DNA from: Candidatus Woesearchaeota archaeon
GTDB taxonomy: Archaea; Nanobdellota; Nanobdellia; Woesearchaeales; ARS49
Assembly (NCBI GenBank): GCA_016929895.1
Contig: JAFGHW010000048.1
Coordinates: 1-61,147, forward strand
Length of the DNA: 61,147 nucleotides
Direction of reading: 5' to 3'
Shown here: positions 17,500-57,186 of the stretch, in pieces
Position numbering within the stretch: position 1 is the stretch's first letter
How the letters are laid out: each line of letters opens with the position of its first letter
Translations under genes and position numbers: made by a program
Notes under the pieces: generated by a model
The model's database searches: none
What the model saw: the letters and a program-made list of their open reading frames with translations, nothing else
What the model was told of the DNA's origin: nothing

Positions 17500-17500
17500 T

Positions 17501-22509: not shown

Positions 22510-22511
22510 AA

Positions 22512-35129: not shown

Positions 35130-36916
35130 GATAATGCCTCATCTTCAAAGCAGTCTCCACCAAGATTATTATTTTTTAATATAACAACAAGATTATTCTG
35201 GAATACAGGAACAAAATTATTTTCGTTAATCAATTTTTCCAACAATTTTAAAGTATATTTTTGTATTGGGGGACTTCTGCTTACTTTGTCGGTGTACAGA
35301 TATTCGTAATTGCATAATGAGTGCATCATACTAACAAATTTACGTTCTTTTTCGACATATGTGCCGTTTTCCTTAAAAAAGGTTTCTGCAAGTATAAACC
35401 CTCTTACCTGCATTGTTGAAGTTAAAACACCTTCAGAAGCTTTTTTAACATAATAATCAATATAAGTTCTGAATTGATTTTTTAGCATCATATAAAACAC
35501 AGTTTCCTGGTTATATCTATCTCCATAAAGAACTAGTATTTTCTCGTCATCATCAACATTATCTCTTACCCATTTAAATGCCTCCCAGGTATAAGGATCT
35601 GCAAAAGCATAACCTCCAAGCGGCGTCGGAGCATGATACATATAAGTTGGGATAAGAGTAGCTAAAAATAATACGGAAAAAATGAACACAGGCGCAAGTT
35701 TTATTTTTATAATTTTTTTAAGAAATAAATAGATGATAAATAATGTTAAACCAGTTATAGGCATAAGAAGAATAGGGAAAAGATGTCCTATTTGTGTTGT
35801 TTTATTTCCTAAAACACTGAAAAGACCATTAAATGCAAACATAAAACTCACAGATATTATTATATCTATTGTTCTTATTTTCTTAAATATTAAAAAACCA
35901 AGACCAATAATAATACCTATAATGAGTAAATACTTAAAAAATCCAAACTGCCATAAATAAACATGGTGTGGAAGCCAAGGAGGCATGTATTGAATTAAAA
36001 TACTATTTACTTGTGCGTATCCATGTGCCGCACTTTTAATATATAAAAACATGAAAAGAATCGGAATATAATGAAACATCATTAGTAACATTATTGGGAT
36101 TGATAAAATATAATTTCTAAGAGCAATTAATGTTACATTTTCTTTTAATAAGGTGATTATACCTTTTGGATTTTTTATAATTTTTTGCAGTATTTTCTCT
36201 TTTAGAAACCTCACTAAGAAATAAAGAGCAACACCAGTATTAAACATTAGTGTTTCTCTTGCGTGTGCTAAAAAACCGGCGCCATTCATAATACCTAAAA
36301 AAATAAACATGTATCTTTTATTTAAATGAAGAATACAAAATAAACCAACCACAGCAAAAAGCATTGTTGCAGGCGAAAGGCACATCCCCCAAGTGATTGT
36401 ATACTGAAAAGGCCACTTAAACACAAGTAAACTTAAAGGCAGAGAAAGTATAGCCAATCTTAAATCAATCTTTTTCAAAAAATAGAATACCATCAAAGTT
36501 GATAAAACGATAAATAAAAGAGTTGAATGCATTATAAATTCATGAGTTTCAAGGCCGGTGAACAGAGAAAGTTGTCCTGCGATAATACCACTAATCATAG
36601 AAAAAGTAGTAATAACGCCCGGTGTTCCCTGTGATAAATAAAAAGGCAGATGTGAAATATCGCTTTCAAGTTTAGCCATTTCAGCATAAACAGAACAGGT
36701 AAACATATCACCCGCGTTATAATTGAATGGTGCATCATGTTCAAGTAAACCTGCGTTAAAAAAAGACATAAATTTCAACATAATTATCAGAAAAATTATC
36801 AGAAAGATAAATTCGATTTTTATTTTCTTAACATACTTAAAAAGTGATGCTAACTTATTGCAGTGAATAAGGTTATCTGTATATGCCGAATTATCTTTCT
36901 TATTGTCTCCATCCAT
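35126..36916 (-). CDS. Polytopic membrane protein with C-terminal soluble domain; candidate GT-C-like transferase or polymerase
   Basis: 596 aa with about 12 or more hydrophobic helices. The first loop is acidic (LLEHDAPFNYNAGD). A non-membrane tail of about 170 aa follows. I recognise no diagnostic family motif. Confidence 0.45.
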   Translation of the reverse strand: MDGDNKKDNSAYTDNLIHCNKLASLFKYVKKIKIEFIFLIIFLIIMLKFMSFFNAGLLEHDAPFNYNAGDMFTCSVYAEMAKLESDISHLPFYLSQGTPGVITTFSMISGIIAGQLSLFTGLETHEFIMHSTLLFIVLSTLMVFYFLKKIDLRLAILSLPLSLLVFKWPFQYTITWGMCLSPATMLFAVVGLFCILHLNKRYMFIFLGIMNGAGFLAHARETLMFNTGVALYFLVRFLKEKILQKIIKNPKGIITLLKENVTLIALRNYILSIPIMLLMMFHYIPILFMFLYIKSAAHGYAQVNSILIQYMPPWLPHHVYLWQFGFFKYLLIIGIIIGLGFLIFKKIRTIDIIISVSFMFAFNGLFSVLGNKTTQIGHLFPILLMPITGLTLFIIYLFLKKIIKIKLAPVFIFSVLFLATLIPTYMYHAPTPLGGYAFADPYTWEAFKWVRDNVDDDEKILVLYGDRYNQETVFYMMLKNQFRTYIDYYVKKASEGVLTSTMQVRGFILAETFFKENGTYVEKERKFVSMMHSLCNYEYLYTDKVSRSPPIQKYTLKLLEKLINENNFVPVFQNNLVVILKNNNLGGDCFEDEALS

Positions 36917-37023: not shown

Positions 37024-38022
37024 ATGAAAATAACCATACGTTCAAAATTTTTGAACATAATAAGAGATTGGATATCTTCGCGATTAGCTAAGAACATAAT
37101 CACTAAAAAAATATTTTATTCAAAACCAATTACTAATAAGAAATGGGATCTTTTTTCTATAGAATTAACTAATCATTGTCCAATGAAGTGTGATGTTTGC
37201 CCAAGAACCAACAATATGACTCGGCCTTTAGGGTTCATGGATTTTTCATTGTTTAAAAAAATAATAGACCAAGCAAGCGAGAAAATAAATTCTGTGTGGC
37301 TTCATCAATTTGGAGACAGTTTAGTACATCCCGAATTTAAAGAATTTATTATTTATGCTCAAAACAAAGGAATCAAAACAAAATTATCTACAAATGCAAT
37401 ACTCTTAAATGAAGTTACATCTAAAAAATTGATAGAATCCGGCTTAGACAGACTGATTATTTCTTTGGATTCTACTGATGAAGAAAGTCAGACCAAAACT
37501 AGAGGAGTTCCTGGGATTTACAAAAAATCTGTTGAAAACGTTAAAAAGTTCTTAGAAGTAAGAAAATGCGCAGGGTCTAAAAAACCCAACACTATTTTAC
37601 AGATGATTGAATATGAATATACAAAAAATTTAGTTCCAATTTTTATAAATCAATGGAAAAATAATAGCGATCTGGATGAAATCTCGATTGGTACTTTTGT
37701 AAATTGGAACGGAGGAGTCGATAGAATCAATAACTACACAAAAAAATTAAGTTTATTACTGAGATTTGTTAAAAAATTCAATAAAAAGAAATCCCGATAT
37801 AATTGTTGTCATTTCCCATGGAGATCTTTATCTATTCTTTGGGATGGCACTGTTGTTCCTTGCTGTTTTGATTATGATGGTTTATATGTTTTAGGAAATG
37901 TTAAAGATCAGTCTCTTGATGAAATATGGAATGGAGAGAAAATGCAGGCTTTAAGAAATGAATTTATTCATAATAAAGTAACAAATAAATTATGCTCCAC
38001 TTGCCGCGGTAGATTTATATAA
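37024..38022 (+). CDS. Radical SAM enzyme with C-terminal SPASM-like Cys-rich domain
   Basis: 332 aa. CPMKCDVC lies at nt 37177-37200. The C-terminal cysteines are CCHFPW...VPCCFDYDG...CSTCRG. Confidence 0.8.
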   Translation: MKITIRSKFLNIIRDWISSRLAKNIITKKIFYSKPITNKKWDLFSIELTNHCPMKCDVCPRTNNMTRPLGFMDFSLFKKIIDQASEKINSVWLHQFGDSLVHPEFKEFIIYAQNKGIKTKLSTNAILLNEVTSKKLIESGLDRLIISLDSTDEESQTKTRGVPGIYKKSVENVKKFLEVRKCAGSKKPNTILQMIEYEYTKNLVPIFINQWKNNSDLDEISIGTFVNWNGGVDRINNYTKKLSLLLRFVKKFNKKKSRYNCCHFPWRSLSILWDGTVVPCCFDYDGLYVLGNVKDQSLDEIWNGEKMQALRNEFIHNKVTNKLCSTCRGRFI

Positions 38023-39353: not shown

Positions 39354-40016
39354 ATGGAACAAATACCTGAATTTTTAAAACCAGAATATTATTTTTCAAA
39401 TTTAGACAAGTACAAAGAAATATTTGAAGGAGTTAATTTTGTTTGGGAAGCAATACCAAAAATTTCTGAGTTTGTCAGGAAGAAAACAGAAGAAGCAGGA
39501 GAAAAAATTATAATTGGCGAAGGAACAAAAATATCTGACGGGGCTGTAATCGAAGGACCCTGCTTAATTGGCAGAAATTGTCAAATACGGCCAGGAGCAT
39601 ATATTCGCGAAAATGTTGTAATCTATGATGGTTGTATAATCCGGGGAGAAATAAAGAATTCATTAATGATGGAAAACAGTGCAGCAGCACATTGGCCGTA
39701 TATCGGTGACAGCATAATAGGCGAAAATGCAAATTTAGGAGCACGAACAACATTATCCAATCTAAAAGTAAATCCAAGCAATGTTAAAATTAAAATTGGA
39801 GATATAATCCATGATACAAAACTGTCTAAATTTGGAGCAGTATTAGGAGATAGAGTCAGTACAGGATGCCATTGTGAAACAAATCCAGGAACATTAATAG
39901 GACCAGGGGTAATGATTTATCCCAGCGCAACAATTGGTCCTGGTTTTTTCAAAAAGAATCATATTATTAAATACAAGCCAGGAATTGAAGTTGTTGAAAT
40001 AGTTGAAAGGAAATGA
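39354..40016 (+). CDS. Left-handed beta-helix (hexapeptide) acyl/acetyltransferase, GlmU-C-terminal-like
   Basis: Hexapeptide runs are IGEGTKISDGAVIEGPCLIGRNCQIRPGAYI and IGENANLGARTT. An AGGTGA sequence at 39343-39348 precedes the ATG at 39354; the track start at 39345 is a GTG. Confidence 0.7.
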   Translation: MEQIPEFLKPEYYFSNLDKYKEIFEGVNFVWEAIPKISEFVRKKTEEAGEKIIIGEGTKISDGAVIEGPCLIGRNCQIRPGAYIRENVVIYDGCIIRGEIKNSLMMENSAAAHWPYIGDSIIGENANLGARTTLSNLKVNPSNVKIKIGDIIHDTKLSKFGAVLGDRVSTGCHCETNPGTLIGPGVMIYPSATIGPGFFKKNHIIKYKPGIEVVEIVERK

Positions 40017-41083
40017 TACCAATAGCCAAACCAGACATGACTGATGTTGAAGTTCAAGCAGTTGCAGAAGTTCTAAAATCAGGAATGCTTGTTCAAGGCA
40101 AAAAAGTAAAAGAACTCGAAGAGGCATTTGCAAAATTTATTGGAACAAAATACTCTATAGCAACAAGCTCTGGAACAACTGCTTTGCATGTTGCATTGAT
40201 TGCTCATGGAATTGGACCGGGAGATGAGGTGCTTACTTCTCCGTTTACTTTTATTTCAACTGCTAATTCAATTTTATTCTGTGGAGCAAAACCAGTATTT
40301 GTAGATATTGACCCAGACACTTTTAACATTGATGCTTCAAAAATACAAGAAAAAATAAATTCAAAAACAAAAGCAATAATACCTGTTCATTTATTTGGGC
40401 AAAGCTGTGACATGGATAAAATCACAGAAATCGCTGAAAAATATCGTCTAGTTGTTATCGAAGATGCGTGCCAGTCACACGGAGCAGAATACAAAGGAAA
40501 AAAAACAGGCAGTTTTGGAACAGGATGCTTCTCGTTCTATCCAACAAAAAACATGACTGCGGGCGAAGGAGGAATAATTACAACAAACGATGAAGAAATT
40601 TATAACAAAGCTTGTTTATTACGCGACCATGGAATGCCAGAGAGATACAACCACACGATCTTAGGATATAATTACAGAATGACTGATATACACGCAGCAA
40701 TAGGAATAAAACAACTTGAAAAATTAGAAGAATACAATAAAAAAAGAATAGAAAATGCACAATTTTTAACTGAAAATATCAATATTCCAGGCATAATCAC
40801 GCCAAAAATCCAACACAAACATGTTTTTAACCAATACACAATAAAAATAACACCAGAGTGCAAATTCAGCCGCAAAGAATTAATGCAAAAACTAAAAAAT
40901 GCAGGAATTGGGCATTTTATTTATTATCCCTGTGTGATTTATTATCAGGAACCATACGCCGATTATGCAAAAGACTGTCCAATAGCAGAAAAAATCAGCA
41001 AACAGGTATTAAGCATTCCAGTACATCCAAAACTAAGCAACGAAGACCTGCAAAAATTAAAAGAATTTTTTCAATCAATATGA
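40013..41083 (+). CDS. DegT-family PLP sugar aminotransferase
   Basis: 356 aa. The PLP lysine sits in FSFYPTKNMTAGEGG. An ATGA start/stop overlap links it to the LbH gene. Confidence 0.88.
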   Translation: MIPIAKPDMTDVEVQAVAEVLKSGMLVQGKKVKELEEAFAKFIGTKYSIATSSGTTALHVALIAHGIGPGDEVLTSPFTFISTANSILFCGAKPVFVDIDPDTFNIDASKIQEKINSKTKAIIPVHLFGQSCDMDKITEIAEKYRLVVIEDACQSHGAEYKGKKTGSFGTGCFSFYPTKNMTAGEGGIITTNDEEIYNKACLLRDHGMPERYNHTILGYNYRMTDIHAAIGIKQLEKLEEYNKKRIENAQFLTENINIPGIITPKIQHKHVFNQYTIKITPECKFSRKELMQKLKNAGIGHFIYYPCVIYYQEPYADYAKDCPIAEKISKQVLSIPVHPKLSNEDLQKLKEFFQSI

Positions 41084-42075
41084 ACCAGAACTTCTTCAAC
41101 ACTTAATCTCTTAAAATAATCTCTATTTTTAGGATTTTTCCCGTAAATCTCAACATCTGGCTCGTAAATATCTTCATCTTTCCATAAAGCAACAGAACCC
41201 TTGGTTAAAGGAGCTTTTCTAGCAGGATTTGTAGGACCAAACAACGAAATAACCTTTGCTCCAGAAGCAGAAGCAATATGCATAGGCCCAGAATCACTAC
41301 AAATGACCAATTTGCAACGGCGCATTAATTCACACGATTGAGAAATATTTGTTTTTCCCGCAAAATTAAATATTTTTTTTCTTTTGCACTTGAGCAAAAT
41401 ATGTTTATTTAATTCAAAATCACTTTTTCCGCCTAATAAAAGGATTGAATATTTTTTAGGAATTTTATTAATTAATTCAATGAATTTTTCTTTAGGCCAT
41501 CTTCTTGAACCAACAACAGCGCCTCCAGGATTTTTAGCGCCTCCAGGAACAATCCCAATAAAATTCTTTATGCCTTTTGTTAATTTATCAACCAGTTCAA
41601 TATCCTCTTTAGACACAAACAAATCAATTTTTTTACTTTTTTCTTTAGCACCAACAACTCTTGCCAAATCAAGATAATAATCAATTTCATGCTTTAAAGA
41701 ACCATATTTTACATTAATCGTATTTGCAAAACCCTCTTTTCCACGATTAAACCCTATCCTAGTCTTAATACCTGTTGCAAAACCAAATAATCCTGCCAAA
41801 TAAGCCTTATCCAATATGAACAAAACATCATATTTCTGTTTTTTAATATTTTTTAATAATCTTAATTTACTAAAAATTTTTTTTGAATGAAAAATAGAAT
41901 CATCATATGCAAAAACTCTATTTAAATTATGATTATTTGCTACTGCTTTGGCCGACCATTTTCCAGTATGAAAATCAATAATTGCATTAGGAAATCTTTT
42001 TCTCAAAGCACGCAAAAAAGGAGTGGCCATAAGAATATCGCCTATTGCGCCAGATTTTAAAACTGCGATTTTCAT
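41071..42075 (-). CDS. GT9-family glycosyltransferase (heptosyltransferase-like)
   Basis: 334 aa with MKIAVLKSGAIGDILMATPFLRALRKRFP and a C-terminal CSDSGPMHIASASG, typical of ADP-heptose:acceptor heptosyltransferases. Confidence 0.82.
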   Translation of the reverse strand: MKIAVLKSGAIGDILMATPFLRALRKRFPNAIIDFHTGKWSAKAVANNHNLNRVFAYDDSIFHSKKIFSKLRLLKNIKKQKYDVLFILDKAYLAGLFGFATGIKTRIGFNRGKEGFANTINVKYGSLKHEIDYYLDLARVVGAKEKSKKIDLFVSKEDIELVDKLTKGIKNFIGIVPGGAKNPGGAVVGSRRWPKEKFIELINKIPKKYSILLLGGKSDFELNKHILLKCKRKKIFNFAGKTNISQSCELMRRCKLVICSDSGPMHIASASGAKVISLFGPTNPARKAPLTKGSVALWKDEDIYEPDVEIYGKNPKNRDYFKRLSVEEVLVHID

Positions 42076-42171: not shown

Positions 42172-43527
42172 ATGAGATTGATTGACAAACTAAATCTTCT
42201 CCAAAACAAGAAGATTTTAGTGCTAGGAGACTTGATGCTTGATGAGTATGAATACGGCGAAGTTTCCAGAATATCGCAAGAAGCTCCTGTTCAGGTAGTA
42301 AAGTTTGAATATTCAAAAAAAGTTATTGGAGGGGCGGGAAATACCGCCAATAACCTTGTTTCATTAGGGGCAGAAGTTTTTCTTGCAGGGATTGTTGGAT
42401 CTGATCGGAAACACAAAGAACTTCTTGAATGTCTTAAACAAGCCAATATTAATTCAGAAGGAGTTATTACTGATAATACAAAGCCGACCATTGTGAAAAA
42501 AAGAATAGTTTCTGGAAAAAATCAATTAATACGAATCGATTATGAAGATAATAAACCCATCGATCATGAAGCACAAGAGAAAATTAAGCAATTCATACAG
42601 AAAAAAATAGATTTAGTAGATGTTATAGTAATCAGCGATTATGACAAAGGATTAATTAATGTTGACTTAATGAAATTTTTAATCAACTTATCTAATGAAA
42701 AAAAAATTCCGACTGTTTTAGACGGCAAATCACAAAATTTAGAATGTTTTAAGGATGTAACTTTAATAACACCCAATATACAGGAAGCCAGGCAAATGTC
42801 AGGCATTTATGACAACGTGGAAGAGATGGGCAAAGTTTTGGTTTCCAGGTTAAACACGAATCTTTTTTTAACTCGCGGAGCGGATGGGATATCTGTTTTT
42901 GAGAAAAATGGAAAAATAACTCATGTCCCAACTAAAAAAGTCCCAGTTTACGATGTTACAGGCGCAGGAGACACGGTTGTTGCAATATCCGCGCTTGGAC
43001 TGGCCAGCGGAATGAATTTTAAAGAAATCGCAGAAATAGCAAATATTGCAGGAAGAATAGTTGTTCAAAAACCGGGAACAGCTACTGTAACATTAGAAGA
43101 AATACGAAAAACAATGGATTCTATTTCTATACGAGAATCGCATGAAAAATACAAAAAAAAATGGGGCTATGAAGAATGGATAGTTAATTTAGATTCAGCA
43201 GGTTATTGCGGCAAAAAATTAATTTTAAATAAAGGTTATCAATGTTCTATACACTATCACAAAGAAAAAGATGAAGTTTTTTATATAAACAAAGGATTTG
43301 TATTGATGACTATCGATGGAAAACAAGAACTAATGAAACCAGAATCAAGAATACGAATCGAACCAGGAACAAGACACAGATTTATTGGGTTAACAGATGC
43401 AGAAATAATAGAGATTAGTTCATTTCATAAAGAAGAAGATAGTTATAGAGATGAGCCAAGCGGAAGGGTAAATGAGGAGAAGTTTAAAAATTATATTAAA
43501 AAATATTCAGATGAAATAAATGAATAA
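42172..43527 (+). CDS. D-glycero-beta-D-manno-heptose-7-phosphate kinase (RfaE domain I, PfkB family) fused to a C-terminal phosphomannose-isomerase-type cupin
   Basis: 451 aa. Kinase motifs are GGAGNTANN and DVTGAGDT. The cupin occupies residues about 329-432. Confidence 0.8.
   Translation: MRLIDKLNLLQNKKILVLGDLMLDEYEYGEVSRISQEAPVQVVKFEYSKKVIGGAGNTANNLVSLGAEVFLAGIVGSDRKHKELLECLKQANINSEGVITDNTKPTIVKKRIVSGKNQLIRIDYEDNKPIDHEAQEKIKQFIQKKIDLVDVIVISDYDKGLINVDLMKFLINLSNEKKIPTVLDGKSQNLECFKDVTLITPNIQEARQMSGIYDNVEEMGKVLVSRLNTNLFLTRGADGISVFEKNGKITHVPTKKVPVYDVTGAGDTVVAISALGLASGMNFKEIAEIANIAGRIVVQKPGTATVTLEEIRKTMDSISIRESHEKYKKKWGYEEWIVNLDSAGYCGKKLILNKGYQCSIHYHKEKDEVFYINKGFVLMTIDGKQELMKPESRIRIEPGTRHRFIGLTDAEIIEISSFHKEEDSYRDEPSGRVNEEKFKNYIKKYSDEINE
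43156..43467 (+). other. Cupin domain (type II phosphomannose isomerase C-terminal-like) inside the heptose kinase ORF
   Basis: The domain reads KKWGYEEWIV...KKLILNKGYQCSIHYHKEKDEVFYINKGFVLMTIDG...IRIEPGTRHRFIG...IIEISS...EEDSYRDEPSGR. It parallels the WG...K.i.v.PG..lS.Q.H.hR.EhW.vv.G.a...HR..N...iEvq.G..l.EdDI.R..D.YGR pattern of GMP/PMI C-terminal domains. Confidence 0.7.
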
Positions 43528-44107
43528 AGCAATATTCTTAGATAGAGATGGGACGATTAATGTAGATGATAAAGAAATATTTTTGCCTCGTTTGAATAAA
43601 AAAGTAAAAGGATATATTCATAAAATAGAAGATTGGGAATTTATACCCAAAGCATTGGAAGCCTTAATAAAGCTGTCTGAGTCTGAATATAAATTGATAA
43701 TAATAACAAATCAATCAGGGATTGGAAGAGGTTATTATACAGAAGAAGATTTAAAAAAGCTACATTTGCATGTCCTTTCTTATAATCATGTAAGAATAGA
43801 TGGAGTATATTTCTGCCCACATCATCCTGAGAAAGCAAGGGGGGTCTATAAAAAATTTTGCGACTGCCGAAAACCTGGAATAGGTTTGATTAAAAAAGCG
43901 GCCCAAGAACATAATATTGATTTAACCAAAAGTTATATGATTGGCGACAAAACAACAGATATTGAATGCGGCCGAAGAGCGGGATGCAAAACAATACTTG
44001 TAGAAACAGGAAATGCTGGAACAGACGGAACATATAACGCAGCTCCTGATTTTACTGCAACAAATTTGCATATGGCTGCAGAAATGATACTTAAGCAAAA
44101 TGAATAA
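43520..44107 (+). CDS. gmhB: D-glycero-D-manno-heptose 1,7-bisphosphate phosphatase
   Basis: 195 aa with HAD motif I FLDRDGTIN, ITNQSGI, the Zn-site-like CPHHP...CDCRKP, and GDKTTD. Confidence 0.85.
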   Translation: MNKAIFLDRDGTINVDDKEIFLPRLNKKVKGYIHKIEDWEFIPKALEALIKLSESEYKLIIITNQSGIGRGYYTEEDLKKLHLHVLSYNHVRIDGVYFCPHHPEKARGVYKKFCDCRKPGIGLIKKAAQEHNIDLTKSYMIGDKTTDIECGRRAGCKTILVETGNAGTDGTYNAAPDFTATNLHMAAEMILKQNE

Positions 44108-44585
44108 AATAAAAACAAAACAGGAAATAGCTGTGATTTGCGAAGAACTAAGAAGCCAAGGCAAGAAAATAGTAACGACCAATGGCAGTTTTGATATTCT
44201 CCATTACGGGCATGTATTCGCTTTTAACAAAGCAAAAGAACAAGGAGACATATTAATTGTCGGTCTTAACAGCGATATTTCCATTAAGAAATATAAAGGC
44301 AATGACAGACCGATAATACCACAAGAATACAGAGCAAAGTTATTAGCTGCTTTGGAATGCGTGGATTATGTTGTGCTTTTTGATGAAACAATACCTAATG
44401 ATTTTTTGGAAAAAGTAAAACCAGATGTTCATGTAAACGAAGCAAACTACGGAGAAAATTGCATAGAGGCGCCTGTTATTAAAAAACATGGCGGAAAACT
44501 TTATTTATTTAAAAGAGAAATTGAAGGAGTATCTACAACAGGAATTATCCATAAAATATTGAATGTCTATGGTAAAAAAGATTAA
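44100..44585 (+). CDS. D-glycero-beta-D-manno-heptose-1-phosphate adenylyltransferase (RfaE domain II / HldC-like)
   Basis: 161 aa with a cytidylyltransferase fold and TNGSFDILHYGH (HxGH). It overlaps gmhB by 8 nt. Confidence 0.83.
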   Translation: MNKIKTKQEIAVICEELRSQGKKIVTTNGSFDILHYGHVFAFNKAKEQGDILIVGLNSDISIKKYKGNDRPIIPQEYRAKLLAALECVDYVVLFDETIPNDFLEKVKPDVHVNEANYGENCIEAPVIKKHGGKLYLFKREIEGVSTTGIIHKILNVYGKKD

Positions 44586-45721
44586 ATTAATTTTTCTGCC
44601 TCTTTATATACTTCGCCGACAGAAATTAAATTAATGCAATTCTTATTATTTTTGCATTTAGAAGGCAATTGTCCCTTATGAACATTAATGCAAGGCCGGC
44701 ATCTTAAAGGTTTTTCTAAGGAAACATTCTTTTTTCCAAAGGGAGCAAATCTAACAGATAAATTAGGGCCAAAAAGGCCGATTGTTTTTGTCCCCTGTGC
44801 TGCGGCAACATGCATGGGGCCAGTATCATTGCTGATAAATAACTTACATTTTTTAACAAGATAAAATAATGCGGTTTTGGATGTTTTGCCGGCAAGATTT
44901 ATCGACGATGAATTCATTATTGAACGAATTTTCTCTATTCTTTTGTGCTCATTAGGAGATCCGACAAAAATAATTTTTGCATTCTTTTTTTTAGCTAATT
45001 TATCTGCAAGCTTGGCAAAATTCTCAGCAGACCAGGACCTGTGCTTGGCAGACTCAGCAGTCCCCGCACACAAACCGATAATCTTATCCTTTTTTTTGAT
45101 TTTTGCCTTTTCAAGAATTGAATTTACTTTAGTTTTATCATTACTTGAATAAGAAAGTTTTACAAGACTTTTGGGGGCATGATAAATTCCTAATTGCTTT
45201 GCCATATCCATGTACGTCAAAACTTCATGCTGTTTATCATTAAAATCAACAGGATGCGTATACAACCAATAACGAACAGTATGAGAAAAACCAATTCTTT
45301 TCTTAGCGCAAAACCAAGAAAGAAGTCCGCTCAATTTAAGATAAGGTTCGCAATCGATTGACAAATCGAATTTACTGAACATTTTTAAAAATTTTAAAGC
45401 ATTTCTTGGCTCGATTAAGATTATTCTGTTAATAAACGGAAGATTTTGAAATACATGAGCATTTTTATCCCTGGCTAAAATAGTAATATTAGAATCAGGA
45501 TATTTGTGTTTAATACTTTTAATCATAGGCAATGTAAGAACTGATTCTCCAAGAGCCCATAATTTTATTACAGCAATATTATTTAACTTTTTTATTTTCT
45601 TATTTTTAGAAGGCAAAATTCTATTATTTATTCCTAACACAAAACAAAGAAAAGAACCTATACATTTATCAATCAGCCATTCTATTTTTGCCATTGCCTT
45701 TTTTGAAACCTCTAATTGCAA
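44582..45721 (-). CDS. GT9-family glycosyltransferase (heptosyltransferase-like), second copy
   Basis: 379 aa with IKLWALGESVLTLPMIKSIKHKYP and ISNDTGPMHVAAAQG. Confidence 0.8.
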   Translation of the reverse strand: MQLEVSKKAMAKIEWLIDKCIGSFLCFVLGINNRILPSKNKKIKKLNNIAVIKLWALGESVLTLPMIKSIKHKYPDSNITILARDKNAHVFQNLPFINRIILIEPRNALKFLKMFSKFDLSIDCEPYLKLSGLLSWFCAKKRIGFSHTVRYWLYTHPVDFNDKQHEVLTYMDMAKQLGIYHAPKSLVKLSYSSNDKTKVNSILEKAKIKKKDKIIGLCAGTAESAKHRSWSAENFAKLADKLAKKKNAKIIFVGSPNEHKRIEKIRSIMNSSSINLAGKTSKTALFYLVKKCKLFISNDTGPMHVAAAQGTKTIGLFGPNLSVRFAPFGKKNVSLEKPLRCRPCINVHKGQLPSKCKNNKNCINLISVGEVYKEAEKLI

Positions 45722-46028
45722 GTTCGCGCGTTAATGTGCTAATATTCTGCTCCAAGCTTTCAAATTTAACATAAATTCTAAAAATCATATAAAACAAAAG
45801 AATAATACTTAAATATGCAACAAAATCTGTGCCTCGTTTTATCCCAACTAAGTCTGCAAAGTATGAAACTCCGTGAGGAGCGAAAGCAAAGACAACTGCG
45901 AGAGTCCAGAGAATAGTCCAAAATAACAGTCCTTGCCTGCTTATTTTTTTATCTTTAAATCTTAAAAAAGCCCTGCTTATAGCAAATAAAGCCACAAGTA
46001 CAATACATAATTTTATTATCCAATACAT
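45669..46028 (-). CDS. DUF2304-like small membrane protein (GT2 partner)
   Basis: 119 aa with about 3-4 TM helices. It sits immediately downstream of a GT2 gene, which is the usual genomic context for this family. Confidence 0.6.
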   Translation of the reverse strand: MYWIIKLCIVLVALFAISRAFLRFKDKKISRQGLLFWTILWTLAVVFAFAPHGVSYFADLVGIKRGTDFVAYLSIILLFYMIFRIYVKFESLEQNISTLTRELAIRGFKKGNGKNRMAD

Positions 46029-46031
46029 TTT

Positions 46032-46712
46032 TTACCTCGCAATTTTTTTTAAAATCATTCCTGCAATGACTTTAACCGCGCCCAAATAGGATCCATGCCC
46101 TTTTTTTAATGTTTCTTTATCATATTTAATAGTAACAGGCACTTCTTTAAATCTTATTTTTTTCTTGTGAATTTCTTCAATTATCTCTGATGCATGAGCC
46201 ATTCTATCGCATGTGATAGATATTTTCTTTGCTGCTGTCTTGGACATGGCACGCAATCCGTTATGAGCATCACTCATTTTTATTCTGTAAAACAAAAACA
46301 TAACCAAAACCGAACCCTTTAAAAGAATCTTTCTGAAAAAAGGAACCTTGCTCTTTTCAATGAACCTTGAACCAATAGTTATATCAGCTTCGCCTTTAAG
46401 TATTGGTTCAAGAATAGATTTTAAGTCTTCTACTCTATGCTGACCATCAGAATCAAATGTAACAATTACGTTGGCATCATTTTGCAAAGCAAAATCAATT
46501 CCGGTTTTTAACGAAGCTCCCTGGCCTCGGTTAATAGCATGCTGTAATAAATAAACTGGGAATTCGGAGGCTATGGCGTATGTATTATCTCCGCTATGAT
46601 CATCTATAACAACAATTTTATCATAATTCGCTTTTAATAAATTAGAAATAACTCCAGAAATAGCTTTTTCTTCGTTAAAAGCAGGGATAACAATAAAGAT
46701 TTTATCAGTCAT
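46032..46712 (-). CDS. GT2 polyprenyl/dolichyl-phosphate glycosyltransferase
   Basis: 226 aa with IVIPAFNEE, IDDHSGDNT and FDSDGQH. Confidence 0.85.
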   Translation of the reverse strand: MTDKIFIVIPAFNEEKAISGVISNLLKANYDKIVVIDDHSGDNTYAIASEFPVYLLQHAINRGQGASLKTGIDFALQNDANVIVTFDSDGQHRVEDLKSILEPILKGEADITIGSRFIEKSKVPFFRKILLKGSVLVMFLFYRIKMSDAHNGLRAMSKTAAKKISITCDRMAHASEIIEEIHKKKIRFKEVPVTIKYDKETLKKGHGSYLGAVKVIAGMILKKIAR

Positions 46713-46754
46713 ATTTTTTTTTTAGAAAAATTTGTTTATAAGCTTTTTGGACTA

Positions 46755-49700
46755 TCAATCTATCTCGATAATTTTTATCTTAAAATTTAACGTCTGATTT
46801 CCAAGAGGATGTTTTTTAGCATTAATACCATAAGCATCTTCAGGGGCGATTTTTGTAGTCTTGACAGAACCTTTTTGCATACCTTTAACCCCTTCATCAA
46901 AACCCTTAATCATTTTTCCTTCGCCCACTTTGAATTGCAAGGGAGTATTTTCATATTCATCAAAATCTGCGTTTTTGGAAATATTTTTAGAGTTCCAATC
47001 ATTTATACTCGAATCAAAAACAGTTCCATTTTCAAGCCAACCAATATATTCAACAACAACAATATCGCCTTTGGAAACAATTGTCTTTTCAATCAAATCA
47101 GGATGAATATTGGGCTTATGGCCCTCCCAATCTGCTTTCCAAACATAAATCATTCCGCCAGTGACCTGCCTTTGTTCATCAAAAAGATCAAAATGTTTAA
47201 GTCCATGACCTTTTAAGAAAAATAATCTTGTAAACATGCTCATAGCAAGCTCTTTTGAAACAAGAATACTACTGTATCCGCTTCCTTCAGGAATCAAAAC
47301 AGCAGAAATTTCAACTTCAGTATTATCGAATTCTTTTTCAATTACTTTTTTAGATTCTTTATCAATATAAACCAAAGATTTTGGAACTCCTGCTCTATTT
47401 TGGATATTAATTAATGCGGTATATTCTGAATTATTCTTCTTAACAATCAAGCCATTACTGCATTTAATTATATTGTTGCTTTCTGCGCACCCACTAATAC
47501 TTGAAGCAAAACCAGGCCATGGAGAAATCCATGCATTTGCTTCTTTCTCATCTGTAATAGCTTGGGCTTCAAAATAAATATTCTCTGCTTGTTCTTCACT
47601 AAAATTATATTTTTCAACCATTGTTTGAACCGCTTCTGTCCTATCAAGACGCCTTAAATTAACCCAAACATCTGCACGTTTAAAATCCCATCCACCAAAA
47701 TGCGCCCAAACTCCTGCCTTATTAATCATATCCGCGGAAGTAATAAAATAATTTTCAGGAGGAGAACAATGAGTATATTGAAGAATTTCTTCCGGATCAT
47801 CAAAATATTCTGTTAAAATATCTTTTGCCTCTTCTTTCCCAACAGTGATTATTGTATAAATTAAATCAACACTTTTGGCAGTATCTTGAAGTTTTTCATT
47901 AATCAATTCAAATGCATTATTTGAACCGCAATCAAGCATGCGCAGAATACCAACAGCAACATCTTCATTATCTGTTAGAAGCGCCTTACCAATCCAATGA
48001 GCATGAGGATAATTCTGTGTTGCTCCGTCAAAAGTAACTGCCCTATCCGCAATATACTTAAAATGATGACCAAAATCCCACCAAGAATTAATAATTGCAT
48101 TAGGCGCAGATTCTTCTTTAATCTTAGTCAATGAATTCCACCAAGCATCATTAATTATAGGAAAATTATTGTTAATAGATGCATAACTGCTTTTAGTAGG
48201 CGAAATAAGCAAGATTCCAAATATTGTGATAATTACAATGCCAGAAACCCATTTTGGAATCTTTAACTCTTTTTTCATCCATTTAGAAACCCAAATATGA
48301 ATCATGCCTGCGGCAACACCAAAAGCAATTGAAAAAGCAGGCACTAAAAGTAAAACAAATCGAACACCTTTTGTTGAAGCGTATATCGTGCTCGCAAACC
48401 AAACAATCAATAAAACTGCATATTTAATATCCCTCCTTTTTCCTGAAGAATCTTTAATGGTTAGAGTTAATAGAATCCCAATTGAACTAATTAAAAAAAG
48501 AAATTTTCCTCCAATGCCATCAATAATCGAAGATATAGATGCGGGATTAAGTTCTGCAACAGTAGTGTAAACATTAGGCCATAAGTTAGCATGTGACGCT
48601 GCTTTGATTACTGTGAATGTAAACGGGGCAAGAATAATATTGGTAAATGAATCCACGCTTGAAAAGATACTTATAAATATTCCTGAGAAAATAAAAAAAG
48701 TGCATGCTATTAAAAAAATATTTTTTAATTCTCTACTTTCTTTAAGAAAACTTGGCTTTTTTATGATTTCTGTATAATTAAAAATGATTAAATAAGCCAA
48801 ATTTATAAATAACGTAATCAATAAGAAGTAGAAAACATACCACCAGCCCCCGGCCCATGCTTTTGAAAAAATTGCAAGAGAAAATGCAGTAAGAGCAGAG
48901 AATAAAAGTTTCTTTTTATAACTTTTGGCAATAATGCTTTCTATAAACAACCAAACTATCAGAATAGGAAAAAATATATTATACGCATCTGTATCTGCGT
49001 GCCCCCAAGGAGTTCTTCCAAGGGCGCCAACATTTAAAACCATCATAGACGCGGCAAAAAAACCTCCAACATTCCCTGCTAACCTTTTTCCAATAAAGAA
49101 AATTGGAAACAAAGACAGAAAAATCATTATAATGGGAAAATATGTTGCAGACTGCATCAATGGAATATTTGAATTAAAAAAACTCATTATTTTATACAAA
49201 AAAACAAGAAAAAAATGATGAAAATTAATACTTACTCGTCTTCCAAGCGGAGCAAGTGAATGATCATCCCATGTTGTGCCATCTTTGATAGTATCCGCAA
49301 AACTTCCAGTTTCAATTTTATTTCTCGCGAATCTCAAATAAGTATAAGGATCAATATCTGGCATGTATACATATGATTTACCATTACTTTCATATTGGAA
49401 TCTTGAACGAAATTGTTTGGCCATTTCTTTTATTTGCGCATCAACAGTTTCTTTTTGTTCAGAAAGAATTTTATTAAGCTCTTTATCAACTAACTTATTT
49501 TTATTTTCTTCAGGAAGATTTGGGTATTGCCTGTTGATTTGCTCACTAATCTGGTTCTTGTAAAAATTATGAACCGAATCTGCGGCCCAATTATCAATCT
49601 GAGGCAAATTCTGTGACTGCATTCTCATCCAAAGACCGCCCCAGGGGAAAAAGCCTGCGTTAGGCATGAACTGTAAAATAATCAAAAGTACCAGAATAAA

Positions 49701-49880
49701 AATTATTTGATGTTTTTTTACTAAATGGAATATTTTTGTAATGTCAATTGTTTGAAAAGAATCTTTATCTTGTCCTTCATCAACTCTGTTTTCAGGATGT
49801 TTAATATTTTTTTTTATTTTTCTAAAGAAATCTCCTATTTTCTTGAAATCTATACTTATTTCTTCATTACTTTCTTCCAT
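46755..49880 (-). CDS. aglB: Archaeal oligosaccharyltransferase AglB (STT3 family) with C-terminal FKBP-type peptidyl-prolyl isomerase domain
   Basis: 1041 aa, multi-pass in the N-terminal two thirds. The first-loop acidic motif is MPDIDPYTYLR. The WWDFG catalytic motif is encoded at nt 48069-48083. The last ~105 aa form an FKBP domain. Confidence 0.9.
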   Translation of the reverse strand: MEESNEEISIDFKKIGDFFRKIKKNIKHPENRVDEGQDKDSFQTIDITKIFHLVKKHQIIFILVLLIILQFMPNAGFFPWGGLWMRMQSQNLPQIDNWAADSVHNFYKNQISEQINRQYPNLPEENKNKLVDKELNKILSEQKETVDAQIKEMAKQFRSRFQYESNGKSYVYMPDIDPYTYLRFARNKIETGSFADTIKDGTTWDDHSLAPLGRRVSINFHHFFLVFLYKIMSFFNSNIPLMQSATYFPIIMIFLSLFPIFFIGKRLAGNVGGFFAASMMVLNVGALGRTPWGHADTDAYNIFFPILIVWLFIESIIAKSYKKKLLFSALTAFSLAIFSKAWAGGWWYVFYFLLITLFINLAYLIIFNYTEIIKKPSFLKESRELKNIFLIACTFFIFSGIFISIFSSVDSFTNIILAPFTFTVIKAASHANLWPNVYTTVAELNPASISSIIDGIGGKFLFLISSIGILLTLTIKDSSGKRRDIKYAVLLIVWFASTIYASTKGVRFVLLLVPAFSIAFGVAAGMIHIWVSKWMKKELKIPKWVSGIVIITIFGILLISPTKSSYASINNNFPIINDAWWNSLTKIKEESAPNAIINSWWDFGHHFKYIADRAVTFDGATQNYPHAHWIGKALLTDNEDVAVGILRMLDCGSNNAFELINEKLQDTAKSVDLIYTIITVGKEEAKDILTEYFDDPEEILQYTHCSPPENYFITSADMINKAGVWAHFGGWDFKRADVWVNLRRLDRTEAVQTMVEKYNFSEEQAENIYFEAQAITDEKEANAWISPWPGFASSISGCAESNNIIKCSNGLIVKKNNSEYTALINIQNRAGVPKSLVYIDKESKKVIEKEFDNTEVEISAVLIPEGSGYSSILVSKELAMSMFTRLFFLKGHGLKHFDLFDEQRQVTGGMIYVWKADWEGHKPNIHPDLIEKTIVSKGDIVVVEYIGWLENGTVFDSSINDWNSKNISKNADFDEYENTPLQFKVGEGKMIKGFDEGVKGMQKGSVKTTKIAPEDAYGINAKKHPLGNQTLNFKIKIIEID
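46758..47090 (-). other. FKBP-type PPIase domain at the C-terminus of AglB
   Basis: The domain reads GDIVVVEYIGWLENGTVFDSS...PLQFKVGEGKMIKGFDEGVKGMQKGSVKTTKIAPEDAYG...LNFKIKIIEI. It matches the FKBP consensus GD.V.V.Y.G.L.dG..FDSS...P..F.lG.g.vI.G..eg..GM..G....l.IP...aYG. Confidence 0.85.
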
Positions 49881-54795: not shown

Positions 54796-54804
54796 GGTTA
54801 AAAA

Positions 54805-57057: not shown

Positions 57058-57186
57058 TAGCCGGAATAGTTACTTTATGATAGTCATATGAAATATATAG
57101 AAACTACTCAAGAATGATAAATCATAGAAAACTTTAAATACTCAAGCTTCATAAACCATATAAAATATGTGATTGGGGGTTGGAAA

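What the first reader, a model, noticed from the sequence alone, without database searches (positions are those of the whole stretch)
43156..43467. Phosphomannose-isomerase-type cupin fused to the heptose kinase: candidate non-orthologous replacement of GmhA
Seen: the kinase ORF continues into a ~105-aa cupin. Its sequence (WGYEEW...CSIHYHKEKDEVFYI...EPGTRHRF...IIEISS...EEDSYRDEPSGR) tracks the C-terminal mannose-6-phosphate isomerase domain of bifunctional GMP/PMI enzymes. No SIS-domain GmhA is present in the module or anywhere in this 61-kb window.

Established: GmhA isomerises sedoheptulose-7-P (a ketose) to glycero-manno-heptose-7-P. PMI performs the chemically equivalent ketose-to-manno-aldose isomerisation on fructose-6-P, and cupin-type phosphosugar isomerases are known in archaea.

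Inference: the cupin may perform the first step of the pathway and hand its product directly to the fused kinase. To my knowledge this isomerase-kinase fusion is undescribed. The alternative is that it is an ordinary PMI supplying mannose-6-P for the Gmd branch.
Basis: partly seen in the sequence, partly recalled or inferred. Interest (0 to 1): 0.8.

Follow-up and report, generated by a model that had tools for sequence, protein, structure and literature searches.

The report
Cupin stand-in for heptose isomerase GmhA
A small metal-binding cupin domain fused to the heptose kinase of a tiny (DPANN-type) archaeon most likely does the first step of nucleotide-heptose synthesis in place of the usual enzyme GmhA; it belongs to a large, unnamed protein family that swaps with GmhA at the same place in related genomes.

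Summary
ORF 42172..43527(+) is one 451-aa protein: a heptose-7-P kinase (aa 9-315), a short flexible linker, and a ~105-aa cupin (aa 329-432 = 43156..43467) with an intact HxH...E...H metal site. GmhB and a heptose-1-P nucleotidyltransferase follow. Two GT9 heptosyltransferase-like genes flank the module, and an AglB/STT3 glycosylation island adjoins it. The window contains no SIS/GmhA.

No biochemistry was possible.
- The cupin belongs to a tightly conserved family: 3044 representative clusters at E<=1e-10.
- It occurs fused to the kinase in both orders, and also to GmhB, the nucleotidyltransferase and GT9.
- As a standalone gene it heads cupin-HldD-kinase-GmhB-NTase operons.
- None of 84 cupin loci has GmhA within about 10 kb; none of 9 GmhA-type heptose loci has the cupin.
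- Colinear islands differ only in SIS versus cupin in the same slot.
- A contig syntenic with the window (74% nt identity) carries the same kinase fused to a true GmhA domain.

The cupin's nearest sequence relatives are type II phosphomannose isomerase and D-lyxose/D-mannose isomerase. No paper found links a cupin to this step.

Untested: enzyme activity, and absence of gmhA from the whole genome.

The parts
42172..43527 (+). Whole bifunctional ORF (451 aa plus stop): heptose-7-P kinase fused to a C-terminal cupin
   Evidence: Continuous ORF. PfkB and Cupin_2 hits. TIGR02198 at 336.9 bits. About 50 homologues share the architecture. AF2 full-length model has pLDDT 91.8.
42172..43125 (+). Kinase domain (aa 1-318), HldA / RfaE domain I type
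   Evidence: TIGR02198 covers aa 9-315, E 1.1e-100. It is 72% (BLASTP) to 74% (alignment identity) identical to the kinase of P0023/L161, which is fused to a GmhA domain.
43126..43155 (+). Inter-domain linker (aa 319-328)
   Evidence: aa 319-323 have pLDDT below 50 in the full-length model. Similarity to the kinase-SIS relative ends at about window 43091.
43156..43467 (+). Cupin domain (aa 329-432), proposed sedoheptulose-7-P isomerase. Predicted metal ligands are H361, H363, E368 and H402. Other family-invariant residues are K329, W331, G332, E334, N339, C346, K348, S359, K366, F370, G375, E414, S416, H419, D423 and R426.
   Evidence: Cupin_2 at 33.5 bits. Invariant columns listed. AF2 domain model has pLDDT 94.8. 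Best fold match is the Thermococcus small cupin PMI 7zvy.
43468..43527 (+). C-terminal helical tail (aa 433-451) and stop codon
   Evidence: Helices 435-444 and 446-450 in the AF2 model. Absent from most homologues in alignment A1.
43520..44107 (+). GmhB, heptose-1,7-bisphosphate 7-phosphatase (195 aa); overlaps the fusion ORF by 8 nt
   Evidence: NF006506 at 179.9 bits against a cutoff of 178; TIGR00213 at 159 against 149.6.
44100..44585 (+). Heptose-1-P nucleotidyltransferase (HldC / RfaE domain II type, 161 aa)
   Evidence: TIGR02199 at 160.4 bits (cutoff 181.5), E 2.4e-47. CTP_transf_like hit.
41071..42075 (-). GT9 heptosyltransferase-like gene, divergent from the kinase-cupin gene
   Evidence: PF01075 at 113.4 bits.
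44582..45721 (-). Second GT9 heptosyltransferase-like gene, convergent with the module
   Evidence: PF01075 at 130.7 bits. Orthologous to the GT9 of the SIS-type and cupin-type islands at 44-46% identity.
45669..49880 (-). Conserved island context: DUF2304, GT2 and AglB/STT3 fused to FKBP
   Evidence: Pfam hits. The same gene order occurs in L162-L166.

Best explanation
The C-terminal cupin is a metal-dependent aldose-ketose isomerase. It converts sedoheptulose-7-phosphate to D-glycero-D-manno-heptose-7-phosphate. That is the reaction normally done by the unrelated SIS-fold enzyme GmhA.

Proposed pathway:
1. The cupin makes heptose-7-P from sedoheptulose-7-P.
2. The fused kinase phosphorylates it at O-1 to give heptose-1,7-bisphosphate.
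3. GmhB (43520..44107) removes the 7-phosphate.
4. [quoted passage not shown]
5. The two flanking GT9 transferases use this donor in an AglB-linked glycosylation island of a DPANN-type archaeon.

What is shown: the domain architecture, the intact cupin metal motif, the family's fusions and operon partners, its mutual exclusion with GmhA, and same-slot replacement of GmhA.

What is inferred: the substrate, the reaction, the roles of individual residues (H361/H363/E368/H402 binding the metal; K348, K366, R403, R426, H419, E414 and D423 for phosphate binding or proton transfer), and the identity of the nucleotide.
For: 1. Pathway logic. The module has kinase, GmhB and nucleotidyltransferase by curated models, plus two GT9 genes. 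It has no isomerase other than the cupin, and no SIS is found anywhere in the 61 kb.

2. Fusion ('Rosetta stone') evidence.
- Among kinase homologues, about 50 are kinase-cupin, about 28 are cupin-kinase, and 2 are kinase-NTase-cupin.
- Among the 150 best family representatives there are also cupin-kinase-NTase, NTase-cupin, GmhB-cupin-NTase, cupin-GmhB and GT9-cupin-kinase.

3. Operons. In 58 of 80 GTDB genomes carrying the cupin, it is fused or adjacent to the kinase, usually with GmhB, NTase and GT9. The typical DPANN operon is cupin, then a gene scoring 265.6 bits on the ADP-heptose 6-epimerase model TIGR02197 (cutoff 274.6), then kinase, GmhB and NTase. Every step is present except GmhA.

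4. Mutual exclusion. None of 84 cupin loci has a GmhA hit. None of 9 GmhA-type heptose loci has the cupin. The GmhA HMM scored 105-337 bits on its positive controls.

5. Same-slot replacement.
- L163 reads STT3, GT2, DUF2304, GT9, a methyltransferase gene, NTP_transferase, SIS, HldD-like, kinase, GmhB, NTase.
- L164 has the same genes in the same order, without the methyltransferase and with a 120-aa cupin in place of SIS.
- The ten shared genes are colinear and 51-69% identical.

6. Orthologous locus. L161 aligns with the window at 74-75% nt identity across the GT9 start, the intergenic region, the kinase domain and the downstream GT9. Its kinase ends in a GmhA domain (TIGR00441, 202.9 bits against a cutoff of 209.45) where the window has the cupin.

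7. Kinase tree. The window's kinase is sister to that kinase-SIS protein inside a clade of kinase-SIS fusions. SIS-adjacent kinases nest inside the cupin-adjacent clade. This implies at least 2-3 switches.

8. Chemistry.
- The nearest non-generic relatives are type II PMI (TIGR01479 and PF01050).
- D-lyxose/D-mannose isomerase is also close: 2y0o at E 1e-8, sharing the N..YC.K.L...G..C..H.H...K.E.F..GKV motif.
- The best fold match is the small cupin PMI of Thermococcus, 7zvy (TM 0.82 normalised to the target).
- All of these make or use manno/lyxo-configured aldoses from ketoses.
- The metal motif is invariant in all 84 family members examined.
Against: - No enzymology was done.
- Whole-genome absence of gmhA could not be checked. 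Only about 10 kb on each side of each locus was visible, and the window is the whole contig.
- About 20 of 80 family members are not next to heptose genes. In DPANN genomes several sit between gyrB and gyrA, so the family could have a housekeeping role such as PMI.
- Some members are fused to an RmlD-like reductase, NUDIX, or a ManC/HddC-type nucleotidyltransferase. This would also fit an enzyme acting on nucleotide sugars.
- Slot replacement does not prove the same function. In L081 and L162 the HldD slot is taken by an unrelated GSU2086-family gene.
- The sequence link to PMI and lyxose isomerase is weak. Fold search does not separate sugar isomerases from other cupins, since all score around E 1e-7.
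- The kinase tree is neighbour-joining without support values.
Confidence: 0.7

Rival explanations
1. The cupin is an ordinary type II-like phosphomannose isomerase (fructose-6-P to mannose-6-P). It would supply the GDP-mannose/perosamine branch (Gmd 16447..17499 and DegT 17501..18661), and its fusion to the heptose kinase would be incidental. A variant is that it is bifunctional on both F6P and S7P.
For: - There are weak hits to the GMP_PMI C-terminal domain and to PF01050 in homologues.
- JGI labels many members 'mannose-6-phosphate isomerase-like'.
- The best fold match is an archaeal cupin PMI.
- The window has Gmd and no other recognisable PMI.
- Orphan copies sit between gyrB and gyrA, which suggests a general role.
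- P0181 is a cupin fused to an NTP_transferase, like a reversed GMP-PMI.
Against: - Across archaea, CPR, Bdellovibrionota and others, the family's partners are heptose genes (kinase, GmhB, HldC-type NTase, HldD-like, GT9). They are not ManB, ManC or Gmd.
- It replaces a bona fide GmhA (L081 scores 227.8 bits on TIGR00441, above the cutoff) in the same slot and on the same kinase.
- GmhA is not known to act as a PMI (my own knowledge).
- Orphan, adjacent and fused copies share every invariant residue, so there is no sign of a separate PMI subfamily.
Confidence: 0.1
2. The cupin acts later in the pathway as an epimerase or isomerase on NDP-heptose or a heptose phosphate. Models would be the RmlC-like C3/C5 epimerases of Campylobacter GDP-heptose modification, or the zinc cupin domain of CapF. 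The true S7P isomerase would then be encoded elsewhere.
For: - Cupins are known to modify GDP-heptose (PMC7949155).
- CapF structures (an entry described as a capsular polysaccharide assembling protein) appear among the fold matches; that CapF pairs an SDR with a cupin domain is my own knowledge.
- Family members are fused to an RmlD-like SDR and to NUDIX.
- In DPANN operons the cupin sits next to an SDR epimerase.
- HldE shows that fusion partners need not catalyse consecutive steps (my own knowledge).
Against: - This does not explain strict mutual exclusion with GmhA, or the SIS-to-cupin replacement in colinear islands and on the orthologous kinase.
- The window protein lists only PfkB, Cupin_2, Phos_pyr_kin and Carb_kinase in Pfam, so no RmlC-type family hits at E<0.01.
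- The cupin is not tied to the SDR. The window, the Peregrinibacteria loci and L167 have the cupin without an adjacent HldD-like gene, and L163 has the SDR with SIS and no cupin.
- Its specific sequence motifs match aldose-ketose isomerases.
Confidence: 0.12
3. The cupin is a non-catalytic sugar- or metal-binding regulatory module of the kinase.
For: Cupins can serve as ligand-binding domains; several family members have weak or precomputed hits to the AraC ligand-binding cupin family PF02311 (23.8 bits). No activity data exist for this family.
Against: - Most family members are standalone 110-140 aa proteins.
- The full metal-ligand set plus about 18 further residues are invariant.
- The domain occupies the slot of an enzyme.
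Confidence: 0.03

Closest known systems
GmhA (sedoheptulose-7-phosphate isomerase, SIS fold, TIGR00441)
   Same: It is proposed to catalyse the same reaction at the same pathway position. It occupies the same operon slot and the same C-terminal position on the kinase in close relatives.
   Different: The fold is unrelated: a cupin beta-barrel with an HxH..E..H metal site, not an SIS Rossmann-like domain. There is no sequence similarity. It would be an analogue, not a family member.
Type II phosphomannose isomerase domain of bifunctional GMP/PMI enzymes (PF01050; C-terminal part of TIGR01479)
   Same: It is a cupin of similar size. The motif order is parallel: WG.., then H.H(K/R)..E, then P.G..HR., then E...ED..R. 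The TIGR01479 alignment is weak but nearly full-length, and PF01050 is hit in homologues. Both yield manno-configured aldose phosphates from ketose phosphates.
   Different: The window protein scores far below the family cutoffs. Its partners are heptose enzymes rather than a mannose-1-P guanylyltransferase. The predicted substrate has seven carbons.
D-lyxose/D-mannose isomerase cupins (PF07385; B. subtilis YdaE 2y0o, Thermofilum 7nzo, E. coli Z5688 3kmh)
   Same: This is the best sugar-isomerase hit by profile (2y0o at E 1e-8). It shares the N..YC.K.L..G..C..H.H...K.E.F motif and the second-motif His.
   Different: Those enzymes are larger (about 175-225 aa) and act on unphosphorylated sugars. 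They are not linked to nucleotide-sugar operons.
Cupin-type phosphoglucose isomerase (cPGI, PF06560) of Euryarchaeota
   Same: It is a precedent for the same kind of event: a metal-dependent cupin replacing an SIS-fold sugar-phosphate isomerase (papers cited in PMC7304191).
   Different: It is a different cupin family, with no PF06560 hit, and a different substrate.
Small archaeal cupin phosphomannose isomerases (Thermococcus, PDB 7zvy and 7zvm)
   Same: This is the top structural match (TM 0.82 normalised to the target, rmsd 2.3 A). It is a monocupin of about 110 aa that acts on a sugar phosphate.
   Different: Identity is only 16-18%. The profile E-value is about 2e-6, no better than for unrelated cupins such as KdgF.
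HldE, and SIS-kinase or SIS-kinase-NTase multidomain heptose enzymes
   Same: These are multidomain fusions of NDP-heptose pathway steps. The kinase domain is homologous (PMC11573728).
   Different: The isomerase module here is a cupin, which is not among the described types.

Membership tests
Cupin superfamily (Cupin_2, PF07883) | Profile match above the gathering score | tested here: met
   33.5 bits against a cutoff of 27.2, covering aa 352-411.
Cupin superfamily (Cupin_2, PF07883) | Motif 1 (HxH, 3-4 residues, E, 6 residues, G) and a motif 2 His; small beta-barrel fold | tested here: met
   H361-Y-H363-KEKD-E368-VFYINK-G375 and H402 are invariant in the family. The AF2 model is an all-beta barrel with pLDDT 94.8.
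GmhA / SIS phosphoheptose isomerase (TIGR00441, PF13580) | SIS-fold domain matching the family profile | tested here: not met
   There is no SIS hit in the protein or anywhere in the window. It can only be a functional analogue.
GmhA / SIS phosphoheptose isomerase (TIGR00441, PF13580) | Catalyses sedoheptulose-7-P to D-glycero-D-manno-heptose-7-P | not testable with these tools
   Inferred from operon slot, fusions and mutual exclusion.
Type II phosphomannose isomerase (PF01050; TIGR01479 C-terminal domain) | Profile match above the family cutoff | tested here: not met
   TIGR01479 scores 22.7-24.8 bits against a cutoff of 372.95. PF01050 does not hit the window protein at E<0.01. Some homologues pass the PF01050 cutoff of 23.6 (P0181 26.9, P0231 28.3, P0201 26.3).
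Type II phosphomannose isomerase (PF01050; TIGR01479 C-terminal domain) | Association with a mannose-1-P guanylyltransferase domain or with GDP-mannose genes | tested here: not met
   Partners are kinase, GmhB, HldC-type NTase, HldD-like and GT9. Only one representative (P0181) has an NTP_transferase fusion.
D-lyxose/D-mannose isomerase (PF07385) | Profile match and size of about 170-225 aa | tested here: inconclusive
   The window protein has no PF07385 hit. Homologues have precomputed or faint hits. The family profile hits 2y0o at E 1e-8 over only part of the domain. The domain here is about 105 aa.
Cupin-type phosphoglucose isomerase (PF06560) | Profile match | tested here: not met
   Not among the Pfam hits at E<0.01, and not among the precomputed Pfam domains of homologues.
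RmlC-like NDP-sugar 3,5-epimerase cupins (including Campylobacter GDP-heptose C3/C5 epimerases) | Match to the RmlC-type cupin family; about 180 aa; no metal-binding HxH motif (family features as I recall them) | tested here: not met
   The only Pfam families listed for the window protein at E<0.01 are PfkB, Cupin_2, Phos_pyr_kin and Carb_kinase. The domain is about 105 aa and has a full metal motif.
Heptose-7-P kinase (HldA / RfaE domain I, TIGR02198) - the fused partner | Equivalog profile score above the cutoff | tested here: inconclusive
   336.9 bits against a cutoff of 345. The orthologue fused to GmhA scores 340.1. The score is marginally below the cutoff but the context is unambiguous.
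NDP-heptose biosynthetic module (isomerase, kinase, phosphatase, nucleotidyltransferase) | All four activities encoded together | tested here: inconclusive
   The kinase, GmhB (above cutoff) and the RfaE domain II-type NTase are present. The isomerase is present only if the cupin fills that role.

The most novel reading that the evidence does not exclude
A large, unnamed cupin family is a second, evolutionarily independent sedoheptulose-7-phosphate isomerase. It has 158 representative clusters at E<=1e-30, about 3000 at E<=1e-10, and 3753 clusters at 90% identity at E<=1e-15.

On this reading it has repeatedly displaced GmhA, as a standalone gene or fused to any other pathway enzyme. The lineages include DPANN archaea, Peregrinibacteria and other CPR, Bdellovibrionota, Planctomycetota and Dependentiae.

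Genome surveys that call NDP-heptose synthesis 'incomplete' for lack of gmhA would then be wrong for these lineages. Nano-sized archaea would make heptose-containing glycans from islands adjoining AglB.
Probability: 0.65. Interest if true: 0.78.

Novelty: new variant of a known kind. Interest (0 to 1): 0.72.

Why it matters
- **Immune signalling and drug targets.** ADP-heptose and related NDP-heptoses are LPS and glycan precursors. They are also innate-immune agonists sensed by ALPK1. GmhA is treated as the universal entry enzyme and as a drug target.
- **Pathway annotation.** A non-homologous isomerase for this step would change how the pathway is recognised in genomes. Databases now label the family 'cupin domain-containing', 'quercetin dioxygenase-like' or 'mannose-6-phosphate isomerase-like'.
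- **Distribution of heptose producers.** Predicted producers would extend into DPANN archaea and CPR bacteria.
- **Enzyme evolution.** It would add a second clear case, after cupin-type PGI, of a cupin replacing an SIS-fold sugar-phosphate isomerase.
- **Testability.** The claim can be tested directly with one recombinant protein and a gmhA complementation assay.

Tried and rejected
- **Metagenome scan with a kinase alignment.** I hoped for an unbiased cupin-versus-SIS contingency table. Of 80 loci, 74 were generic bacterial kinases with neither isomerase nearby. It gave only positive controls for the GmhA HMM and the L081/L082 pair.
- **Fold search of the cupin model against the PDB.** The top hit is a cupin PMI. 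However, hundreds of unrelated cupins (KdgF, quercetinase, oxalate decarboxylase, CENP-C) score the same, around E 1e-7. Fold alone does not assign function.
- **Sequence search of the PDB.** The top hits are quercetinases matching only the generic metal motifs. I rejected these as functional leads.
- **Exact look-up of the window protein in the assembly index.** It is not on record, so the source and bin could not be identified.
- **Whole-genome test for gmhA.** This was not possible.
- **Full-length AF2 model.** I ran it to look for a fixed kinase-cupin interface. It gives no support for channelling.
- **Frameshift or assembly artefact.** I considered whether the fusion was an artefact and rejected this. 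Many independent assemblies share the architecture.
- **Separate paralogue for the gyrB-cupin-gyrA copies.** I considered this. The tree and invariant residues do not separate them from the operonic copies.
- **Literature searches.** Searches combining cupin with heptose, sedoheptulose or GmhA found only the RmlC-like GDP-heptose epimerases.
Full report
**1. What is at the coordinates**

The ORF 42172..43527(+) is continuous and encodes 451 aa. Domain hits are as follows.
- Pfam PfkB covers aa 13-305.
- Pfam Cupin_2 covers aa 352-411 (33.5 bits, cutoff 27.2).
- The C-terminal PMI part of TIGR01479 matches weakly (E 3.9e-5 for the whole protein, 8.9e-6 for the domain alone).

The finding's interval 43156..43467 is aa 329-432, which is the cupin domain. 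AF2 models are confident:
- The cupin alone has pLDDT 94.8.
- The full-length protein has pLDDT 91.8 and pTM 0.71, with a disordered linker at aa 319-323.

The protein is therefore two well-folded domains on a flexible tether. There is no support for a fixed channelling interface.

**2. The module and its surroundings**

Downstream, with overlapping start and stop codons, lie two further pathway genes.
- GmhB (43520..44107) scores 179.9 bits on NF006506, cutoff 178.
- An RfaE domain II-type heptose-1-P nucleotidyltransferase (44100..44585) scores E 2.4e-47 on TIGR02199.

GT9 heptosyltransferase-like genes flank the module on the minus strand at 41071..42075 and 44582..45721.

The rest of the window is a glycosylation island (GC 31.5%). 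Its contents are:
- AglB/STT3 fused to an FKBP domain
- GT1, GT2 and GT4 transferases and PMT_2 proteins
- four DegT-family aminotransferase genes (17501..18661, 22488..23663, 29584..30708, 40013..41083)
- Gmd
- four radical-SAM enzymes of similar size, three of them with a B12-binding domain hit, plus one SPASM-type radical-SAM enzyme

No SIS/GmhA is present. tblastn with E. coli GmhA (sequence recalled from memory) found nothing. A GmhA HMM on all six-frame ORFs found nothing. Pfam showed no SIS domain on the long window ORFs that are not shadow ORFs. No tRNA or Rfam feature was found.

**3. The cupin is a member of a large, sharply defined family**

An alignment of 30 cupin domains from kinase fusions (A1) has 20 invariant positions. 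These include the cupin metal ligands H361, H363, E368 and H402. They also include K329, W331, G332, E334, N339, C346, K348, S359, K366, E414, S416, H419, D423 and R426.

A profile search of 1.84 billion cluster representatives finds 158 proteins at E<=1e-30 and 3044 at E<=1e-10. A second search finds 3753 clusters at 90% identity at E<=1e-15. Sources label them 'cupin domain-containing', 'quercetin dioxygenase-like' or 'mannose-6-phosphate isomerase-like'.

**4. Fusion partners**

Among the 120 best homologues of the whole protein:
- about 50 are kinase-cupin
- about 28 are cupin-kinase, mostly from Peregrinibacteria
- 2 are kinase-NTase-cupin
- 5 are kinase-SIS

Among the 150 best family representatives:
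- 111 are essentially standalone
- 25 are fused to the kinase in either order
- 8 are tandem cupins
- single examples exist of kinase-NTase-cupin, cupin-kinase-NTase, NTase-cupin, GT9-cupin-kinase, GmhB-cupin-NTase and cupin-GmhB

The cupin has therefore been joined independently to every other enzyme of the NDP-heptose pathway.

A few members are fused instead to a ManC/HddC-type NTP_transferase, an RmlD-like reductase or NUDIX. One such gene lies in a cluster with histidine phosphatases and a GatZ-like protein. These cases are compatible with sugar-phosphate chemistry but are not explained.

**5. Operons and mutual exclusion with GmhA**

A scan of GTDB representative genomes with the cupin profile found 169 relatives. 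The 80 best loci were fetched. They come from DPANN archaea, CPR/Peregrinibacteria, Bdellovibrionota, Planctomycetota, Dependentiae and others.

I analysed them with home-made HMMs for kinase, GmhB, NTase, GT9, GmhA, HldD and others.
- 58 of 80 loci have the cupin fused or adjacent to the kinase, usually with GmhB, NTase and GT9.
- The typical DPANN operon is cupin (118 aa), a 297-aa gene, kinase, GmhB and NTase.
- The 297-aa gene scores 265.6 bits on the ADP-glyceromanno-heptose 6-epimerase model, cutoff 274.6.
- That operon contains every step of ADP-L,D-heptose synthesis except GmhA, plus one extra gene, the cupin.

None of 84 cupin-bearing loci has a GmhA hit. None of nine GmhA-bearing heptose loci (L081, L083, L115, L118, L121, L161, L162, L163, L168) has the cupin. 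The GmhA HMM scored 105-337 bits on those nine controls.

**6. Same-slot replacement**

I looked up loci through kinase-only homologues, which does not select for either isomerase. They show one conserved island in two versions.
- L163: STT3, GT2, DUF2304, GT9, a methyltransferase gene, NTP_transferase(-), SIS, HldD-like, kinase, GmhB, NTase, GT2.
- L164 and L165: the same genes in the same order, without the methyltransferase and with a 120-aa cupin where L163 has SIS.

The ten shared genes are 51-69% identical. The window carries the same island (STT3-FKBP, GT2, DUF2304, GT9) next to its module.

**7. The orthologous locus with GmhA**

P0023 is 72% identical to the window kinase and ends in a GmhA domain (TIGR00441, 202.9 bits, cutoff 209.45). 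Its contig L161 aligns with the window at 74-75% nucleotide identity.
- L161 4-1076 aligns with window 42028-43091. This covers the upstream GT9 start, the intergenic region and the kinase domain.
- L161 2687-2910 aligns with window 44664-44887, the downstream GT9.

Between those anchors the window has cupin, GmhB and NTase. L161 has SIS and a methyltransferase.

A second relative, L166 (63% identity), has kinase-cupin alone between the same two GT9 genes. That makes it the direct counterpart of L161.

In a neighbour-joining tree of 70 kinase domains (no support values):
- The window's kinase is sister to L161 inside a clade of kinase-SIS fusions.
- SIS-adjacent kinases (L081, L162, L163) nest within the cupin-adjacent clade, next to L028 at 68-72% identity.

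This indicates at least two or three independent switches.

**8. What chemistry the cupin fits**

Apart from generic cupin hits, the relatives are aldose-ketose isomerases that handle manno/lyxo configuration.
- Type II PMI: TIGR01479 and PF01050.
- D-lyxose/D-mannose isomerase: B. subtilis YdaE 2y0o at E 1e-8. The alignment shares N..YC.K.L..G..C..H.H...K.E.F..GKV and the second-motif His.
- The top fold match is the small Thermococcus cupin PMI 7zvy.

Fold search alone is not discriminating. The window protein's Pfam hit list contains no RmlC-type family and no cupin-PGI family. S7P to D-glycero-D-manno-heptose-7-P is the seven-carbon equivalent of F6P to M6P; this is established chemistry. 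Cupin-type PGI is a precedent for a cupin displacing an SIS-fold isomerase (references in PMC7304191).

**9. Caveats**

- About 20 of 80 loci lack nearby heptose genes.
  - Six DPANN genomes have the cupin between gyrB and gyrA.
  - Dependentiae have it near genes I judged, from the first 60 residues of their translations, to be lpxK-like, nfo-like and rpe.
  - Planctomycetota have it near a gene I judged ddl-like in the same way.
- These orphan copies keep every invariant residue and do not form a separate clade. They probably have the same activity, but a general PMI-type role cannot be excluded.
- Slot replacement is not proof of equal function. A GSU2086-family gene replaces the HldD-like gene in L081 and L162.
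- Whole-genome absence of gmhA, substrate preference and metal identity are untested.

**10. Literature**

No paper in the searchable library links a cupin with sedoheptulose-7-P isomerisation or GmhA. The only cupins described in heptose pathways are the RmlC-like C3/C5 epimerases of Campylobacter (PMC7949155). The described NDP-heptose enzyme architectures are mono-, di- and tridomain (isomerase/kinase/nucleotidyltransferase) types (PMC11573728).

**11. Verdict**

The interpretation, a non-orthologous replacement of GmhA by a PMI-like cupin, is the best-supported explanation (about 0.7). It is a new variant of a known kind: a known pathway and known cupin isomerase chemistry, but an unrecognised enzyme family for this step.

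Noticed in passing
window 46755..49880 (-); also L166 13602..16850: The AglB/STT3 oligosaccharyltransferase (1041 aa) carries a C-terminal FKBP-type peptidyl-prolyl isomerase domain (aa 934-1037, 72 bits). The same fusion occurs in the relative L166. An OST-PPIase fusion is unusual.
   Followed up: partly
L035, L043, L054, L065, L075, L076 (cupin at about 10 kb in each locus, or as listed): In six DPANN genomes a standalone member of this cupin family sits between genes that look like gyrB and gyrA (judged from the first residues of their translations). No heptose genes lie within 10 kb. The reason for this conserved position is unknown.
   Followed up: partly
L081 788..1708; L162 7100..7996: In two GmhA-type heptose operons, the slot that holds the HldD-like 6-epimerase elsewhere is occupied by a GSU2086-family protein (416 bits on NF052581; faint deoxyhypusine-synthase-like Pfam hit). 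Its role in a heptose operon is unexplained.
   Followed up: no
L166 10001..11368; L161 157..1680: In the closest relatives, the isomerase-kinase fusion (cupin or SIS version) sits alone between two GT9 genes, with no adjacent GmhB or nucleotidyltransferase. Those steps must be encoded elsewhere, or the locus stops at heptose-1,7-bisphosphate.
   Followed up: partly
window 13819..15267, 21142..22509, 31847..33295, 33297..34754, 37024..38022: The glycan island contains four radical-SAM enzymes of similar size (three with a B12-binding domain hit; the fourth, 33297..34754, has only the Radical_SAM hit) and one SPASM-type radical-SAM enzyme. This suggests unusual sugar C-methylation or related modification.
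   Followed up: no
window 16447..18661: GDP-mannose 4,6-dehydratase (418 bits) is followed directly by a DegT aminotransferase, a GDP-perosamine-type branch. No ManB, ManC or conventional PMI was recognised in the window.
   Followed up: partly
window 24376..26370 (-): This 664-aa protein has an SDR epimerase/dehydratase domain only in its C-terminal half (aa 366-654). The N-terminal ~300 aa (roughly aa 1-300) have no Pfam match.
   Followed up: no
window 35126..36916 (-), 53668..58428 (+): Several long ORFs (596, 375, 524, 225 and 419 aa) have no Pfam match at E<=1e-5. The last ORF (58473..61031) has Ig-like FixG_C-type repeats, so it may be a surface protein.
   Followed up: no
L169 730..1968 and neighbours; P0195; P0220: Members of the same cupin family are fused to an RmlD-like reductase and/or NUDIX. 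One lies in a cluster with a carbamoyltransferase, two histidine phosphatases and a GatZ/KbaZ-like protein. This may be a different sugar pathway using the same isomerase.
   Followed up: partly
window 44100..44585: The nucleotidyltransferase ends in ...GVSTTGIIHKIL. The fifth residue of the 'STTR5' motif, said in PMC11573728 to permit CTP/UTP use, is Ile rather than Arg here. The product may therefore be ADP-heptose only. The motif was read by eye and not analysed further.
   Followed up: no
L024 and L028 (both WGS prefix NZDH01, Woesearchaeota ARS106): One MAG carries two contigs with near-identical copies of the cupin-type island (identical HMM scores). This is either a duplication or redundant binning.
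   Followed up: no
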